Shown: in pieces, positions 25,701 to 31,411 of the stretch
How positions within the stretch are numbered: the stretch's first letter is position 1
Layout: every line of letters starts with the position of its first letter
Assembly: GCA_036172245.1 (NCBI GenBank)
Contig: JAYWIR010000047.1
Span: 992,001-1,056,000, forward strand
DNA from: Raillietiella orientalis
Taxonomy: Eukaryota
Direction: 5' to 3'
DNA length: 64,000 nucleotides
Notes under the pieces: model-generated
What the model saw: the letters and a program-made list of their open reading frames with translations, nothing else
Told to the model about the DNA's origin: nothing
Database searches by the model: none
Position numbers and translations under genes: made by a program

Positions 25701-28700
25701 ACATATCTTTCGAGAATTCTGGCTGCAACATTTTAACTACAGGCTCGCAGAAACGTAATTTTATTTGCATTCATTCTCAGTTAAGAAATTAATTATTCAA
25801 CTAATTTAAACCTCAAAATTTCGCTACTAACCCCTACTAACACAGAGAGTCACAGGAATCATTTGCTGTACTTTCCTAACATTCTACTTTAGAGCATTTA
25901 AAACCTGGATGCAACGTTAAAACTCAAGTCTTCCAAGGAAGCACTCTAGGTAAAATCAAATCAGAAATGACTTCTGTCAGTACAAACAGACCATGCATTT
26001 TGAAGATTCATTTCAAGACTTGGTGTAACGTAAGTAGAAATGTACGTATACTATGTACACAAATTGGATACGCACATGCACGTAAGTTAATTTCATCTTA
26101 ACAGTGGGCAGGCACTTACATAGCAGGAGTTTTGGTGTTCACTAAAGCATCTTTAAATTTTGGAAGGCAGATGACCATGAATATTTTTACAACTTTTATC
26201 GATAAGATGTCGTGAACCGTAGCTAATACGCTTATTTTCAAAAACATCGATCAACTGAAATATTAAATGCAAGAGCAAGTGACTAACTCCTGCACAGCTG
26301 TTCCACACAGACAGTCAGAAAGAATATTCAAGTATAAATATGTCTCCCTCAACTCAAATCCTTTATTTTACAAAAACCGAACTATACAACACAAACATCA
26401 CGAAATAACAATTATCTGCAGCTGCATTCTCAGGTTTGGTTCATCAATATCATGTAATATGCACGAATTACAAGTTGGAAGGAAAGAATGCCAGCTTACT
26501 TAAAATTGTCCCCAATTTCAAGTCTTGAAATCTAAATTTAGGATCACAAAGTAAAAACACACTCACAAAAGTGGTGAAAATTTTTTCTTCCATCAGCAAC
26601 TAATTCCATATTGTGTCAAATCCAATTAAATGGACCGATTTATAGCCAGAAATTTTAAAAGTTTGGTGATACTAATCGTTTTCGCTATCATTACCAAGGA
26701 GATATAAACAAACTTTTAATCCAGTATTTCCACTCACTCACAAGATATATGATAAATTTCGATATACACACACAAGGGATGCTGCAATGCTTCTCCTCAG
26801 AATGATAAATGAAACCTCTCCTCTTACCGAACCAATCTCAACATCTTCAACAATTACGCGAATTATTCATCTCAAAATCCTCGATTTCCATATCTTCACA
26901 TTGTGTTTGTAACAATAAAACATTCAAACGAAACCAATACTACAGCAAGGCTCCTTCACCTCAGACAACTTGTCTCAGTCAATAACAAAATGTACAAATA
27001 GTAAGTTGTTGCGATTAAATTTAATTCAAAGTTTCTTTAGATCAGACGTGCGCGTACTAATTTACAACGATCATTAATACTTGGCTGATCAGTTTTAGAA
27101 CCTACTAAAAAAACTAAAATGCTCGTTAATATCGTTTGTGACTTCTGGTTCGATAAAAAAACTACTTATCAATATTATATGGCAAATTCTGCAAAAAGTT
27201 TCTCCTTGATTCCAAATAAAGCGTTCTTGAGACATTTTTGTACGATTTACTCAATCAGCCACTAGATTACTCAATACTTCACGTCGTCCAAGAGTATCTT
27301 CTTAAAGGGGATATATGTCATATTGTTTTTATCTGATGCAATGCCTGCTTTGGCTGCATGGGCATCATCTTTATGTAATGCATCAAATCAAACGACTGTT
27401 CACAAACTAATACTCTTTTTTTGAAAGAACTGAAAGTTAGGTAAATAGAAAAACGGACAACTGTTACAGGCAAAACATCATTTACTGAAGCAACAAAACT
27501 ACTTATATAGGCAAGGGAAAAATGGAAGAAAAAAAAAAAAGAAAATTACAACACTTCTAAATCAAGGAATGTTTGCATGTACACACAAAGAATAATATGC
27601 CAAAAAAACAGTAAACACTTTGACTCCCCCAATTTACTTATTGAAAACTTTGATATCATTAGCTTGATAAAATTCACAGCAGTCACAAGTTATCTGTTTA
27701 CCTCTCCCAGAAAATTGGCCTGTAAAAACTACAGATTTTTTTTTTTTTCCTACATTTGCAAATACCAGAGTCATGTAAAATTATTGCAGATATGACACGA
27801 CCATAACTACTAATGAACACAAAATCATGCGAGATTTTAAGCTTTTTGCTTTCATTACAACCAATGCATAAAAAATTTGACATTATAATGACTGGAAGAA
27901 ATTTTCAAGTCACTTGAAAAATAAACTAGTAGGTATCATCCAACACTCCTCAAATATTTCTATGCAGGCAATACTTTAAGCACATTACTACCACATGTTA
28001 AATATGGTTCAGATTTGCAATTTGCCACACAATCAGAATTATAGATGACTAAAAGATTTGAAAATTTAGACAAAACCGTTCAAATGATTTTTGCTTTATA
28101 CTAAAGTGGACAACATATACAGTAAGGCATCCAAATTTCGACTGCTGGAAAAAATACAATTTAATTCATTTATATGGCAATGGAAAAGCATGTAAACTAA
28201 TGAAGAAGACAAGACAATTATCATCTCAAAATGCCAAAGTATTTGGGGAATGCTGCTCTGATAACAAAATGCACACTGACAAAAGCACTGAGAAACACCA
28301 CACACAGACCTCTGTAAGTGGGGAGGGGGAGGGGAAGTGGAATGAAAATCCTATGATTGTCCTGTAATTAATAAAAAGATGAGCTGTACATGAAATAATT
28401 CCTATATATACAAAGCACCGAGCTGTAGATAACTTTGGATGTCAAGGCACTGTTGGACACATTGATGAATGATGAATGAAAAAAGCACATTACAAACAAA
28501 CAAGTTAAACATTCAAATTTTATGACAAAGTGCCTTCAAAACTTCATAAACAATGGAAAACATCCATCAACAAACAAATTTACATTTGCTGAAATTACCA
28601 GCAGTGTACATTGAAAATACAGTACATCGCAAACAAAATCTGCTTTTTTTGCACAGGCTGAACTCCCAACACAATTTTGATGCAGTCATTCACTTACTGC

Positions 28701-31411
28701 AATATAACGCAAACTAATGGATTCTTGATACCAGTTAACAAATACAATGTTTCCACAAAACTTGATTTGGTCACAAATATGCAACATTTTTTTTGATATG
28801 AACAGACACAAGTCTTCACTCATACAAAAACTGATTCACTCTTCTTTCGTGATTTCATAAAACATCTACAATTCAGTAACTGAAACCAAACCTTCAGCAA
28901 ATTCAATTACTCTTCCTATTCCATACACAAGCCACTTTCGATGTTTTTAGAGATCTGACATTCAAATCTGATCTGATGGTTATGCTTCCACTTATCTCTT
29001 TTTTTTAAAAAAAAAAAAAAAAATATTTTTAACTTTGCTTACACCTCGGAAATTTTATTTTCACTGCTAAAAGTAGCTACTGTAACCTCAACTGAGCTTT
29101 ACAATTGTTGATTTTTTTTTTTCTACATTCGACATCACTTCCAACCTTCATTCCCTTGAAATGTCTTGGCAAAAATTCAGTTTTAAATAGTTTTTTCTTG
29201 GGCATATAAGATGCAAACACTAATGTAACAATAAAATCATGCCAAAGACATATTACCAAAGCAGTGAGTTCTCATAAAATTAAGCAAAACAATGGAAAAA
29301 AATTCTGAAGTTTGCAAGAAAAGAAACCACAATGCACCAAAATGTGAAAGAATAGGCATAAAATGGAAGACTCAGCATGATTTTTAATTCTTCAAAAAGC
29401 TTTAGGGAGTTTAACATAAAAAGAAAGTCCATGTAATTTCGAGAACTGAAAAGAAACACTTGCAAAGAAAGATTTAACATTCAGTTAATGAAGGGTAGCA
29501 TGCACAAAGATACCACAAATTATATTGGTACAACAAACACAGTACACAGAATAATTCTGGATACTTCAGAATGTATAGAACTGACATCAGAAGCCAAAAA
29601 CATCAAGACTACAGATGAATGAATCCAGTACAAAATAAATGTTTCTTGGCAGAAAAGAACGAATTGGAATTTCAGATTGGAGTTAGTCACTTGCTCTTGC
29701 AATTAACATTTTCAAAGTTCCGGGATTCCAAAGCTATGTATACAAAAGAAAAAAAAAAGTAAAGATGTTATGATGAAAATTATGCAAGACAATAAGGAAA
29801 TCAATACTACTATTCTGAATATGTTATGTCAGCTTACTTTGGAACAGAATTTACTGGGTCACCTATCAATCACGTGTGAGATTTGGTTTCTAAATAGAAA
29901 AAATCCAATGAAGATATCACACAAGGATGAGATAGGAAATCACAGGAGAAAAACACAATACTGCATCACAGATACCGATCATGCTTGTGTGTAGAAGAAA
30001 ACAGAAGAAAAACAAAAAGTATACAATGTTTTGATTTTTCTAATATTGAATCCAAATTAAAATGAGAAAACATGCATAAATGAAATGGTCATTTTATAAA
30101 TTTGCTTTCCTCACCTTTTCTCAGCAAACCATAGTTCATTAGTAATTTACTAACTGCTTAACATAACTTGCTTCATAAAATCAATGTTGTTCAGAAAACA
30201 AGAACCCACAATGCATGCACGATTAGTATATATTTATCAGCTGACTGAGTAGTAATACAAAGCTGATACATTTACACCATCAAATGGATGTCATGTGATA
30301 AAAAAAAACTTTAAATGAAATAGCCACTATTTTTAATATCATTACTATTATCAAAACTAGTTTTTCTGATGAACATCAAATACATCTTGAATCATGTATT
30401 TTCGTAATGTGAAAATACGTATTCCAAAATGCAACAGAATTAGCAATTTTGCACATTACAAGCACTGAGAAGCAAGAAAATTTACAAAATTATCGTCTGA
30501 CTATTAAAAACATAAGCACTTCTGATTCAGGTCTCATGTTTCAACATGTTCATTCGCAAATATATTTAAAACAACACGTTTTTATATATATGTGCATGTG
30601 TGCATAAAAAAATTTCATCATCTTTCAAAAGTTATAAAAAAGTTTATACAAAAAAATTGCAATGAATAAGACTAAGAGAACAATTCAAGAGAACACCACT
30701 ATATTACACAGAGCGCTTGTTTCTTTTGATGTTAGAATATTTTAAAGGAAACATCTCTTTGATTGTTGAATCAAAATAATTGCAACTGGCCATAAAAAAA
30801 AATTATTTTGTATTCACTTCTCATGTACACATTTTTTTCAATTGTAAAAATTCAATGATACATGAAAAATATAAAATGGCGAAATCCAAATCTCAAATCG
30901 GTTTTATTAAAATCACTTTAACATGACATGAAAAAAAAAAAACCTCAAAGTAAGATCTGAAAAAATTATTTCTGCTGAAAAAAATGAAGACGAATAAAAA
31001 AAATTTTAGACATTAATATTAGAAACATTTTTTGTGCTGCAAAGCACAAATGTTGTGGAACAAGCCAATGAGTTCACTCACAAATGGATTTACTTTTAGC
31101 ATTTTAAATCAATTCAGTAAAATGTCATTGAAGCTCAAATGACTTAAATATACGTACTTCTATTCACAGGATCAATCCCTTGACTGGAAATTTGATTTTG
31201 TTCACCACCTCGCTCTCTTGAAGGTTCTTCAGGAAGTTGTGCTCTTTTCCGCAGATGGGGAGGTATGTATCTTTGGGTCTGTTCTCCATTCAGATCTAAA
31301 CCAGCAACCTAAAATTCATATGAACTCTTGAATCAGGGTAGAAATTAGTTTTTAAAAACCTACTTGCTGCTCTAGACCTTCCACATTTTGATAGTTTAAA
31401 ACATTACTCAT
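22763..31411 (-). CDS. DDX3: ATP-dependent RNA helicase DDX3/belle/PL10, 14 exons
   Basis: Exons 31411-31364, 31308-31158, 25502-25388, 24926-24698, 24652-24575, 24521-24378, 24329-24208, 24152-24027, 23982-23838, 23793-23625, 23579-23398, 23345-23228, 23181-22936, 22863-22763. [69 protein letters not shown] and C-terminal DWW. Confidence 0.96.
26259..29710. repeat. Long-range inverted repeat pair inside DDX3 intron 2 (arms 26259-26290 and 29679-29710)
   Basis: TGCAAGAGCAAGTGACTAACTCC (26268-26290) is the exact reverse complement of 29679-29701; extends to 32 nt with 2 differences. Confidence 0.9.

What the first reader, a model, noticed from the sequence alone, without database searches (positions are those of the whole stretch)
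26259..29710. Long-range RNA duplex that could hide a branch point: candidate autoregulatory splicing switch in DDX3
Seen: intron 2 is 5.6 kb while nearly all other introns are 44-72 nt. It holds a 23-bp perfect (32-nt near-perfect) inverted repeat 3.4 kb apart, and one of the two differences is a G-U pair only on the transcribed (minus) strand. The upstream arm contains GACTAAC (branch A at 29683), followed by a pyrimidine tract and the first AG at 29646-29645. An exon opening there hits TAA at 29522-29520 in frame unless an earlier donor is used, and a GTAAGC donor lies at 26499, about 210 nt before the downstream arm. Known: long-range pairings control exon choice, and RNA-binding proteins often autoregulate via poison exons/NMD. 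Inference: the duplex masks the branch point and unwinding (possibly by DDX3 itself) diverts the transcript to NMD. Alternative: TIRs of a TTAA-flanked DNA transposon.
Basis: partly seen in the sequence, partly recalled or inferred. Interest (0 to 1): 0.75.

Follow-up and report, generated by a model that had tools for sequence, protein, structure and literature searches.

The report
Long-range RNA helix in DDX3 intron
Two stretches 3.4 kb apart in the long second intron of an arthropod-type DDX3 RNA-helicase gene can pair into a very stable RNA helix whose weak end covers a possible splice site for a stop-codon exon, which could let the gene limit its own output, but no transcript or cross-species data could be obtained to show that this happens.

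Summary
The 33-bp inverted repeat (23-bp perfect core, one G-U and one U-U on the transcribed strand) lies in the 5,655-nt intron 2 of DDX3. A processed retrocopy confirms the gene structure. The arms are single-copy and enclose no detectable transposase, so the transposon rival is unsupported.

The motif sits deep in the core (17 kcal/mol to open), is transcribed 3.4 kb before its partner, and feeds a mediocre AAG acceptor. A better fit lies at the other arm: the weak A-U end of the helix covers a TTTCAG acceptor (26260-26255) of a 135-nt stop-containing exon closed by GTAAGT. That layout matches the plant DEAD element, where a DEAD-box helicase exposes a poison acceptor at a stem base.

Against this: a rough splice-site model does not single the exon out, similar inverted repeats occur in this genome (2 in 600 kb), and neither transcripts nor conservation could be tested. 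Function about 0.6; DDX3 autoregulation about 0.12.

Side result: the organism adds a 45-nt spliced leader to its mRNAs, DDX3 included.

The parts
22763..31540 (-). DDX3/PL10/Belle gene, 14 exons, from the trans-spliced 5' end to the stop codon (ATG at 31411)
31541..31546 (-). TTTTAG acceptor to which the spliced leader is joined
   Evidence: the retrocopy carries the leader joined right after this AG
31158..31308 (-). exon 2 (ends in phase 1)
25503..31157 (-). intron 2, 5,655 nt, single-copy in the genome
29679..29711 (-). upstream (5') arm of the duplex
29682..29688 (-).
29645..29647 (-).
26258..26290 (-). downstream (3') arm; 26290-26268 is the perfect core, 26266-26258 the weak A-U/G-U end
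26255..26260 (-). TTTCAG acceptor at the base of the helix (best candidate masked site)
26120..26254 (-). candidate poison exon, 135 nt, stop at codon 6 in frame; its 5' part folds as a hairpin (z -2.6)
   Evidence: no transcript evidence
26114..26119 (-). GTAAGT donor closing the candidate exon
26290..26294 (-). second acceptor (TGCAG) at the inner edge of the downstream arm; would open a 170-nt frameshifting exon 26289-26120; rank 12 of 283
29691..29733 (-). further candidate: 43-nt frameshifting exon whose donor (29690) lies inside the upstream arm
29838..29889 (-). further candidate: 52-nt stop-containing exon with GTAAGC donor, 126 nt before the upstream arm; rank 14 of 5,250 acceptor-donor pairs
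25388..25502 (-). exon 3

Best explanation
The two arms pair in the DDX3 pre-mRNA and mask a cryptic acceptor at the downstream arm. The 23-bp core (48% GC) acts as an anchor. Beyond a U-U mismatch, a weak 9-bp A-U/G-U helix lies over the pyrimidine run of the TTTCAG acceptor at 26260-26255. The upstream arm is made first, so this acceptor is covered as it emerges and exon 2 joins exon 3 (productive mRNA). If the weak end is opened or the helix fails to form, the 135-nt exon 26254-26120, or the 170-nt version from 26289, is included. That brings an early stop and NMD. Shown: the repeat, its predicted stability, its overlap with the sites, the stops, the productive junction, and the presence of UPF1. 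Inferred: pairing in vivo, use of the exon, and NMD. The identity of the opener is a guess; DDX3 itself is the obvious candidate but is untested.
For: The duplex forms in the minimum-energy fold of the whole 5,655-nt intron and beats local folds by 28 kcal/mol. It raises the opening cost of the 26254 acceptor from 2.6 to 9.1 kcal/mol; the outer 9 bp are worth only -3.4 against -42.2 for the core. Both differences between the arms fall in the outer 10 bp, and the G-U pairs only on the transcribed strand. An arm end within 5 nt of a TTTYAG that has a GTRAG donor 30-300 nt downstream occurs at 42 of 5,455 positions (0.8%; post hoc). The core is GC-rich for this intron (353 of 5,633 23-mers are as rich). 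All three frames of the 135-nt exon hold stops. UPF1 is present. The plant DEAD element has the same layout: long intron of a DEAD-box gene, alternative acceptor at the stem base, stop-containing cassette exon. Drosophila Atrophin hides an unannotated acceptor in the 3' box of a long-range stem.
Against: A species splice model does not single this exon out: the acceptor ranks 79 of 283, the exon scores 10.4, and simulated introns hold about 160 pairs as good. That model is rough: 6 of 9 test introns were placed exactly. With any YAG accepted, the coincidence rises to 426 of 5,455 positions, 7.8% per arm. Inverted repeats with cores of 23 bp or more occur in 2 of 60 control stretches. Only 2 differences in 33 bp also fit a young neutral copy. 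No match to the arms among 79 distant DDX3/Ded1 loci, and no comparable non-repetitive duplex seen in the 5 examined; these loci are too distant to test conservation. No retrocopy of any part of intron 2 was found. Human DDX3X autoregulation is reported as mRNA destabilisation, and the words intron, NMD and nonsense occur 0 times in that text. DEAD-box proteins unwind about 10-15 bp efficiently, so the core is out of reach.
Confidence: 0.35

Rival explanations
1. Neutral accident: a young, short inverted duplication (template switch or repair event) copied one arm from the other. The overlap with splice-like motifs is chance in a 5.6-kb intron full of weak sites.
For: 2 of 60 control 10-kb stretches hold comparable repeats, which gives roughly a 1-3% chance per intron of this size, with wide uncertainty, and several hundred cases genome-wide (inference). 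Candidate sites are not outstanding. Flanking structure is mostly unremarkable: 1 of 4 flank windows reaches z -2.6, and a stem enclosing the upstream arm is matched at 128 of 1,855 positions. An earlier unchecked note reports a 38-nt inverted copy elsewhere in this genome as an accident.
Against: Both control repeats are longer (65 and 95 nt on extension) and none is a sharply bounded 20-40-mer. The repeat sits in the one long intron of a gene family known to be dosage-sensitive and autoregulated. Two separate low-frequency coincidences: ACTAAC in either orientation at 122 of 5,622 positions, and a TTTYAG with a GTRAG donor at the helix base at 42 of 5,455.
Confidence: 0.35
2. Bridge or loop-out: the helix loops out 3.4 kb of cryptic acceptors, donors and poly(A)-like signals and shortens the intron for a spliceosome tuned to 44-60-nt introns, as in Nmnat or BRD2/BRD3. 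In a trans-splicing organism it could also keep the spliced leader away from internal AGs.
For: Several of the best-scoring acceptors and donors lie between the arms, for example 28422, 27719, 28144, 27101 and 27701, 26827, 26499. Two AATAAA lie between the arms. Precedents. Leader addition is shown for this gene.
Against: The arms lie 1.4 kb from the real donor and 0.75 kb from the real acceptor, whereas Drosophila boxes average 60-80 nt from splice sites. About 2.2 kb remain after looping. AATAAA is not enriched (4 observed, 5.6 expected).
Confidence: 0.14
3. One reading: the masked element is in the upstream arm, either the GACTAAC branch point feeding the AG at 29645 or the donor at 29690 that closes the 43-nt exon 29733-29691.
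For: GACTAAC is the only ACTAAC on the sense strand of the intron and matches the recalled U2-pairing consensus. The duplex raises its opening cost from 2.8 to 17.0 kcal/mol, and that of the 29690 donor from 5.8 to 24.5. An 11-T tract precedes the AG of the 43-nt exon.
Against: Both sites lie in the perfect core, beyond local helicase action. They are exposed while 3.4 kb is transcribed, so a switch would be kinetic rather than an unwinding (inference). The AAG acceptor ranks 74 of 283 and its best exon scores 9.1. ACTAAC is found in 0 of 69 and CTAAC in 1 of 69 predicted intron ends.
Confidence: 0.12
4. Terminal inverted repeats of a TTAA-flanked DNA transposon.
For: TTAA stands at the outer part of both arms.
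Against: The 23-mer has 2 matches in 210 Mb at up to 3 mismatches. A 15-mer has 6 matches against 19 for the reversed control. The 3.4-kb interior matches nowhere else, whereas true repeats here give dozens of matches. 0 of 15 open frames hit Pfam. Pairing continues 5 bp beyond the TTAA. TTAA in a given 10-nt stretch is common here (6%). The ends do not begin with the piggyBac CCC motif (recalled).
Confidence: 0.04

Closest known systems
Plant DEAD element in DRH1/RH46 (Burgardt et al., bioRxiv 10.64898/2026.01.23.701338; abstract, Introduction, one Discussion section and Results passages read; supplements closed)
   Same: [quoted passage not shown]
   Different: DEAD is a local 20-bp hairpin, conserved across land plants, in DDX5-like genes, with helicase-dependent feedback shown by experiment. 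Here the gene is DDX3, the helix is 33 bp with arms 3.4 kb apart, no Rfam match was found, and conservation, exon use and feedback are untested.
Drosophila long-range stems in Atrophin, CG33298 and Nmnat (Raker et al. 2009, PMC2724269; passages read)
   Same: Intronic complementary boxes; in Atrophin an unannotated acceptor lies in the 3' box and is suppressed by the stem.
   Different: Those boxes are conserved across flies, lie on average 60-80 nt from splice sites and tune coding isoforms. Here the arms are deep in the intron and the masked exon would be unproductive.
BRD2 exon 3b and BRD3 exon 5b poison exons (Petrova et al. 2024, PMC10789245; abstract read)
   Same: Pairs of complementary intronic regions control the inclusion of a poison exon; sensitive to elongation rate.
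   Different: Mammalian and conserved; BRD2's regions lie in the introns flanking the exon. Here the best candidate exon lies just outside the loop with its acceptor under the helix end.
Human DDX3X/DDX3Y auto- and cross-regulation (PMC11789639, PMC12979491; passages read) and yeast DBP2 intron autoregulation (as cited in PMC4695336; passages read)
   Same: DDX3 is dosage-sensitive and negatively autoregulated; a DEAD-box gene can be regulated through its own intron.
   Different: DDX3X feedback is described as mRNA stability, and for yeast DED1 through the 3' UTR, with no mention of an intron or NMD in the text searched. DBP2 is the DDX5 family and works by intron retention.

Membership tests
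DDX3/PL10/Belle helicase gene | DEAD and Helicase_C domains with DDX3-type N-terminal motifs | tested here: met
Helicase-sensing poison-splicing element (plant DEAD type) | stable helix in a long intron of a DEAD-box gene | tested here: met
   (predicted folding only)
Helicase-sensing poison-splicing element (plant DEAD type) | alternative 3' splice site at the stem base | tested here: inconclusive
   TTTCAG is at the base but ranks 79 of 283
Helicase-sensing poison-splicing element (plant DEAD type) | use of the site gives premature stops | tested here: met
   (in silico, if used)
Helicase-sensing poison-splicing element (plant DEAD type) | local ~20-bp hairpin in a DDX5-like plant gene | tested here: not met
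   long-range 33-bp helix in DDX3; no Rfam match. It may work alike but is not a member.
Helicase-sensing poison-splicing element (plant DEAD type) | unproductive isoform is made and rises with helicase activity | not testable with these tools
   no RNA run was listed
Conserved long-range complementary regions (Raker/PCCR type) | conservation and covariation across species | tested here: inconclusive
   no related genome held; 79 distant loci give no match
Conserved long-range complementary regions (Raker/PCCR type) | disruptive and compensatory mutations change and restore splicing | not testable with these tools
   bench test
TTAA-type DNA transposon (piggyBac/Kolobok-like) | multicopy termini or interior | tested here: not met
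TTAA-type DNA transposon (piggyBac/Kolobok-like) | transposase or remnant | tested here: not met
   0 of 15 open frames of 60 aa or more hit Pfam at E 0.1; a decayed non-autonomous copy is not excluded by this alone
Spliced-leader trans-splicing (organism context) | same leader on unrelated mRNAs, joined after an AG, with a separate donor locus followed by GT | tested here: met
   9 genomic matches, 0 for the control; 8 read; parent genes traced for 5, 4 exactly after AG and 1 with a one-base difference; leader followed by GTAAG in L021
Spliced-leader trans-splicing (organism context) | Sm site and cap on the donor RNA | tested here: inconclusive
   no canonical Sm site seen by eye in L021:832-900; no Rfam match

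The most novel reading that the evidence does not exclude
An animal DDX3 senses its own activity through a two-part, 3.4-kb-range helix: a core too long to unwind holds a helicase-sized A-U end over a poison acceptor. This would be a convergent counterpart of the plant DEAD element and a splicing route for DDX3 autoregulation. Because this organism trans-splices, the exposed acceptor might even take the AUG-ending spliced leader and cut the message in two (poison trans-splicing; by itself about 0.03).
Probability: 0.12. Interest if true: 0.8.

Novelty: new variant of a known kind. Interest (0 to 1): 0.5.

Why it matters
DDX3 dosage is tightly buffered in animals and the cis-element that does it is not settled; the human work points to mRNA stability. 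A structure-gated poison exon would give a directly testable element and would show that helicase-sensing RNA switches arose separately in plants and animals. In the searches run I saw no report of such an element in DDX3/Belle; I read listings and selected passages only, and the library lacks most subscription journals. If the repeat is an accident it matters little. The spliced-leader finding stands regardless.

Tried and rejected
RNA evidence: no RNA holder was listed for window 22300-32200, so no reads could be laid; this is no evidence either way. Relatives: none held for this genome, and no look-alike windows among earlier findings. Word searches of earlier findings for DDX3 or DEAD-box duplexes gave none. 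A metagenome scan returned 79 DDX3/Ded1 loci, mostly spliced or intron-poor. The intron 2 comparison gave only chance-level hits, best E 0.14. The one long genomic insect-like locus (L183) has a short region in place of this intron. Rfam: 0 matches in 22000-33000. Nested gene or transposase: 0 of 15 frames. Rbfox-type TGCATG and AATAAA are not enriched. An apparent cluster of local structure at the arms (3 of the top 4 of 223 windows) mostly vanished when arm bases were excluded: 1 of 4 flanks stayed at z -2.6, and a molecular-beacon stem round the upstream arm was matched at 128 of 1,855 positions; rejected. My first reading, that the 135-nt exon would be the best-scoring hidden exon, failed. 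For the splice model, 35 of 104 predicted introns were dropped for negative flank scores. Three papers from the DDX3 searches were not about DDX3 splicing. The background count rests on 600 kb only. No complex or structure prediction was needed.
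Full report
OBSERVATION. The repeat is real: arms 26258-26290 and 29679-29711, 33 nt, 94% complementary, 3,388 nt apart, with a 23-bp perfect core, and it is the only such repeat in the window. 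The gene is DDX3 on the minus strand. Pfam DEAD or Helicase_C hit 3 of 6 exon frames, the named animal homologues are DDX3/PL10/Belle, and the N-terminus aligns by eye with arthropod Belle. No close relative is in the protein collection: the best identities over most of the query are about 42-56%. A processed retrocopy on contig C45, 92% identical over 2,153 aligned bases, fixes the structure: 13 introns, 11 of 44-72 nt, one of 461 nt, and intron 2 at 31157-25503 (5,655 nt), with exon 2 joined straight to exon 3.

NOT A TRANSPOSON END. The 23-mer has 2 matches in 210 Mb at up to 3 mismatches. A 15-mer gives 6 matches against 19 for the reversed control. The intron matches nothing else in the genome, while real repeats here give dozens of matches. 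0 of 15 open frames around and between the arms hit Pfam, and Rfam finds nothing. TTAA is common in this sequence, and pairing runs 5 bp past it.

THE HELIX. On the transcribed strand the 33 bp are worth -49.4 kcal/mol, against -44.4 on the other strand, because one difference is a G-U pair; the other is a U-U mismatch. The helix appears in the minimum-energy fold of the whole intron and gains 28 kcal/mol over the separate local folds. It has two parts: a 23-bp core (48% GC, -42.2) and, beyond the U-U, a 9-bp end (11% GC, -3.4). These are predictions; pairing in vivo is inferred.

WHAT IT COVERS. There the GACTAAC motif lies in the perfect core and costs 17.0 kcal/mol to open. It is also transcribed 3.4 kb before its partner exists, so masking would come late (inference). 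Its acceptor is an AAG 38 nt away that ranks 74 of 283 AGs, and ACTAAC occurs in 0 of 69 predicted intron ends of this species. At the downstream arm, the weak end lies over the pyrimidine run of a TTTCAG (26260-26255), and the pairing extends over its C and A with probability 0.5-0.6. The duplex raises the opening cost of this acceptor from 2.6 to 9.1 kcal/mol. A GTAAGT donor at 26119 closes a 135-nt exon with a stop at codon 6 and stops in all frames. A second acceptor at the inner edge of the same arm (rank 12 of 283) would give a 170-nt frameshifting exon to the same donor, though its opening cost does not depend on the duplex (10.1 versus 11.3). Two more candidates lie at or near the upstream arm: a 43-nt exon whose donor is inside the core, and a 52-nt exon 126 nt before the arm. 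UPF1 is present.

HOW STRONG IS THAT? Modest. I built splice-site matrices from 69 of 104 introns predicted in 20 other DEAD-box loci plus the DDX3 introns; the predictor placed 6 of 9 DDX3 test introns exactly, so the model is rough. Signals in this species are weak and the 135-nt exon does not stand out: acceptor rank 79 of 283, and about 160 equally good pairs per simulated intron. As a positional coincidence, an arm end within 5 nt of a TTTYAG that has a GTRAG donor downstream occurs at 42 of 5,455 positions, or 426 of 5,455 if any YAG is allowed. ACTAAC in either orientation occurs in 122 of 5,622 33-mers, and 353 of 5,633 23-mers are as GC-rich as the core. All of these are post hoc. For background, 2 of 60 other 10-kb stretches hold an inverted repeat with a core of 23 bp or more, both longer than this one. 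An accident is therefore unlikely for one given intron, but many will exist genome-wide. A seeming cluster of local structure at the arms did not survive controls. Earlier unchecked notes on this genome list both duplexes around alternative exons and accidental inverted copies; I did not test them.

CONSERVATION AND TRANSCRIPTS. Neither could be tested. No related genome is held. The 79 metagenome DDX3/Ded1 loci are distant and mostly spliced or intron-poor, and show no match to the intron. The search for RNA runs is recorded under Tried and rejected.

CONTEXT: SPLICED LEADER. The retrocopy begins with a leader that is absent from the window and has 9 genomic matches against 0 for the control. 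Of 8 read, L021 shows the 45-nt leader (787-831, ending in ATG) followed by GTAAG, L025 is a decayed copy with the same downstream sequence, five cap retrocopies and one was not traced. For those five the parent gene was found; the junction follows an AG exactly in 4, and with a one-base difference in 1. DDX3 takes the leader at the AG at 31542-31541. Spliced leaders are known in copepods (PMC4664967, passages read); by eye this one differs from the six listed there, which all end in AG. It matters here because an exposed acceptor in a long intron could be attacked in trans as well as in cis (inference).

MECHANISM AND RIVALS. Best reading (0.35): the helix hides an acceptor at the downstream arm as it is made; opening the weak end lets a stop-containing exon in and sends the message to NMD. 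Equally likely (0.35): a young neutral inverted copy. Less likely: a bridge that loops out cryptic sites (0.14), masking of the branch point or donor in the upstream arm (0.12), a transposon relic (0.04). That DDX3 itself opens the helix is a further step. Belle does affect maleless splicing and protein levels in Drosophila (PMC2680859, abstract), but DDX3 is mainly cytoplasmic (recalled), and DEAD-box proteins unwind about 10-15 bp, which suits the weak end and not the core.

COMPARISON WITH THE KNOWN. The closest system is the plant DEAD element (bioRxiv 10.64898/2026.01.23.701338; abstract, Introduction, one Discussion section and Results passages): a 20-bp hairpin in a long intron of DDX5-like genes hides an acceptor at its base, and the helicase opens it to make unproductive transcripts. 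The present element could work like it but is not a member: different helicase family, long-range arms, no shown conservation. Drosophila Atrophin and Nmnat stems (PMC2724269, passages) and the BRD2/BRD3 poison exons (PMC10789245, abstract) are the long-range precedents. Human DDX3X is autoregulated by mRNA stability, and the texts searched do not mention introns or NMD (PMC11789639, PMC12979491; passages). Yeast DBP2 autoregulation through its intron is known from a citation in PMC4695336 (passages). In eight searches I saw no DDX3/Belle long-range duplex or poison exon. I read no supplements; gene lists such as that of Raker et al. could bear on this.

VERDICT. New variant of a known kind if functional; interest 0.5.

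Noticed in passing
L021:787-900 (G000:C450); L018-L025: A 45-nt spliced leader ending in ATG, with a donor-like locus (leader then GTAAG) and several leader-capped retrocopies: evidence of SL trans-splicing in this arthropod-like animal. No Rfam match, no obvious Sm site; unlike the six copepod leaders listed in PMC4664967 by eye.
   Followed up: partly
L004/L009 (G000:C45, about 84,300-86,600): Processed DDX3 pseudogene, 92% identical to the gene, leader-capped, with stops and frameshifts.
   Followed up: yes
window 24574-24522: DDX3 intron 5 is a GC-AG intron.
   Followed up: no
L070:3625-3703 and 7496-7574: An inverted repeat of about 95 bp, 3.8 kb apart, brackets the coding core of another DEAD-box gene.
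   Followed up: no
L072:3438-3492 and 3951-4005: 55-bp perfect inverted repeat, 458 nt apart.
   Followed up: no
L012:1279-2505: A vasa-like helicase core encoded without introns in a genome rich in short introns.
   Followed up: partly
window 1-64000: GC content swings from 27% to 71% in blocks of 10-20 kb; many long GC-rich open frames (for example 3278-6067, 929 aa) were not examined.
   Followed up: no
proteins P0022 and P0006 (alignment A1): Two DDX3 proteins (one from a tick) share a different N-terminus joined at the exon 1/2 boundary, suggesting an alternative first exon.
   Followed up: no
L167:717 and 1230: A metagenome DDX3 contig repeats the GINF motif 513 nt apart in frame; tandem exon duplication, circular RNA or misassembly.
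   Followed up: no
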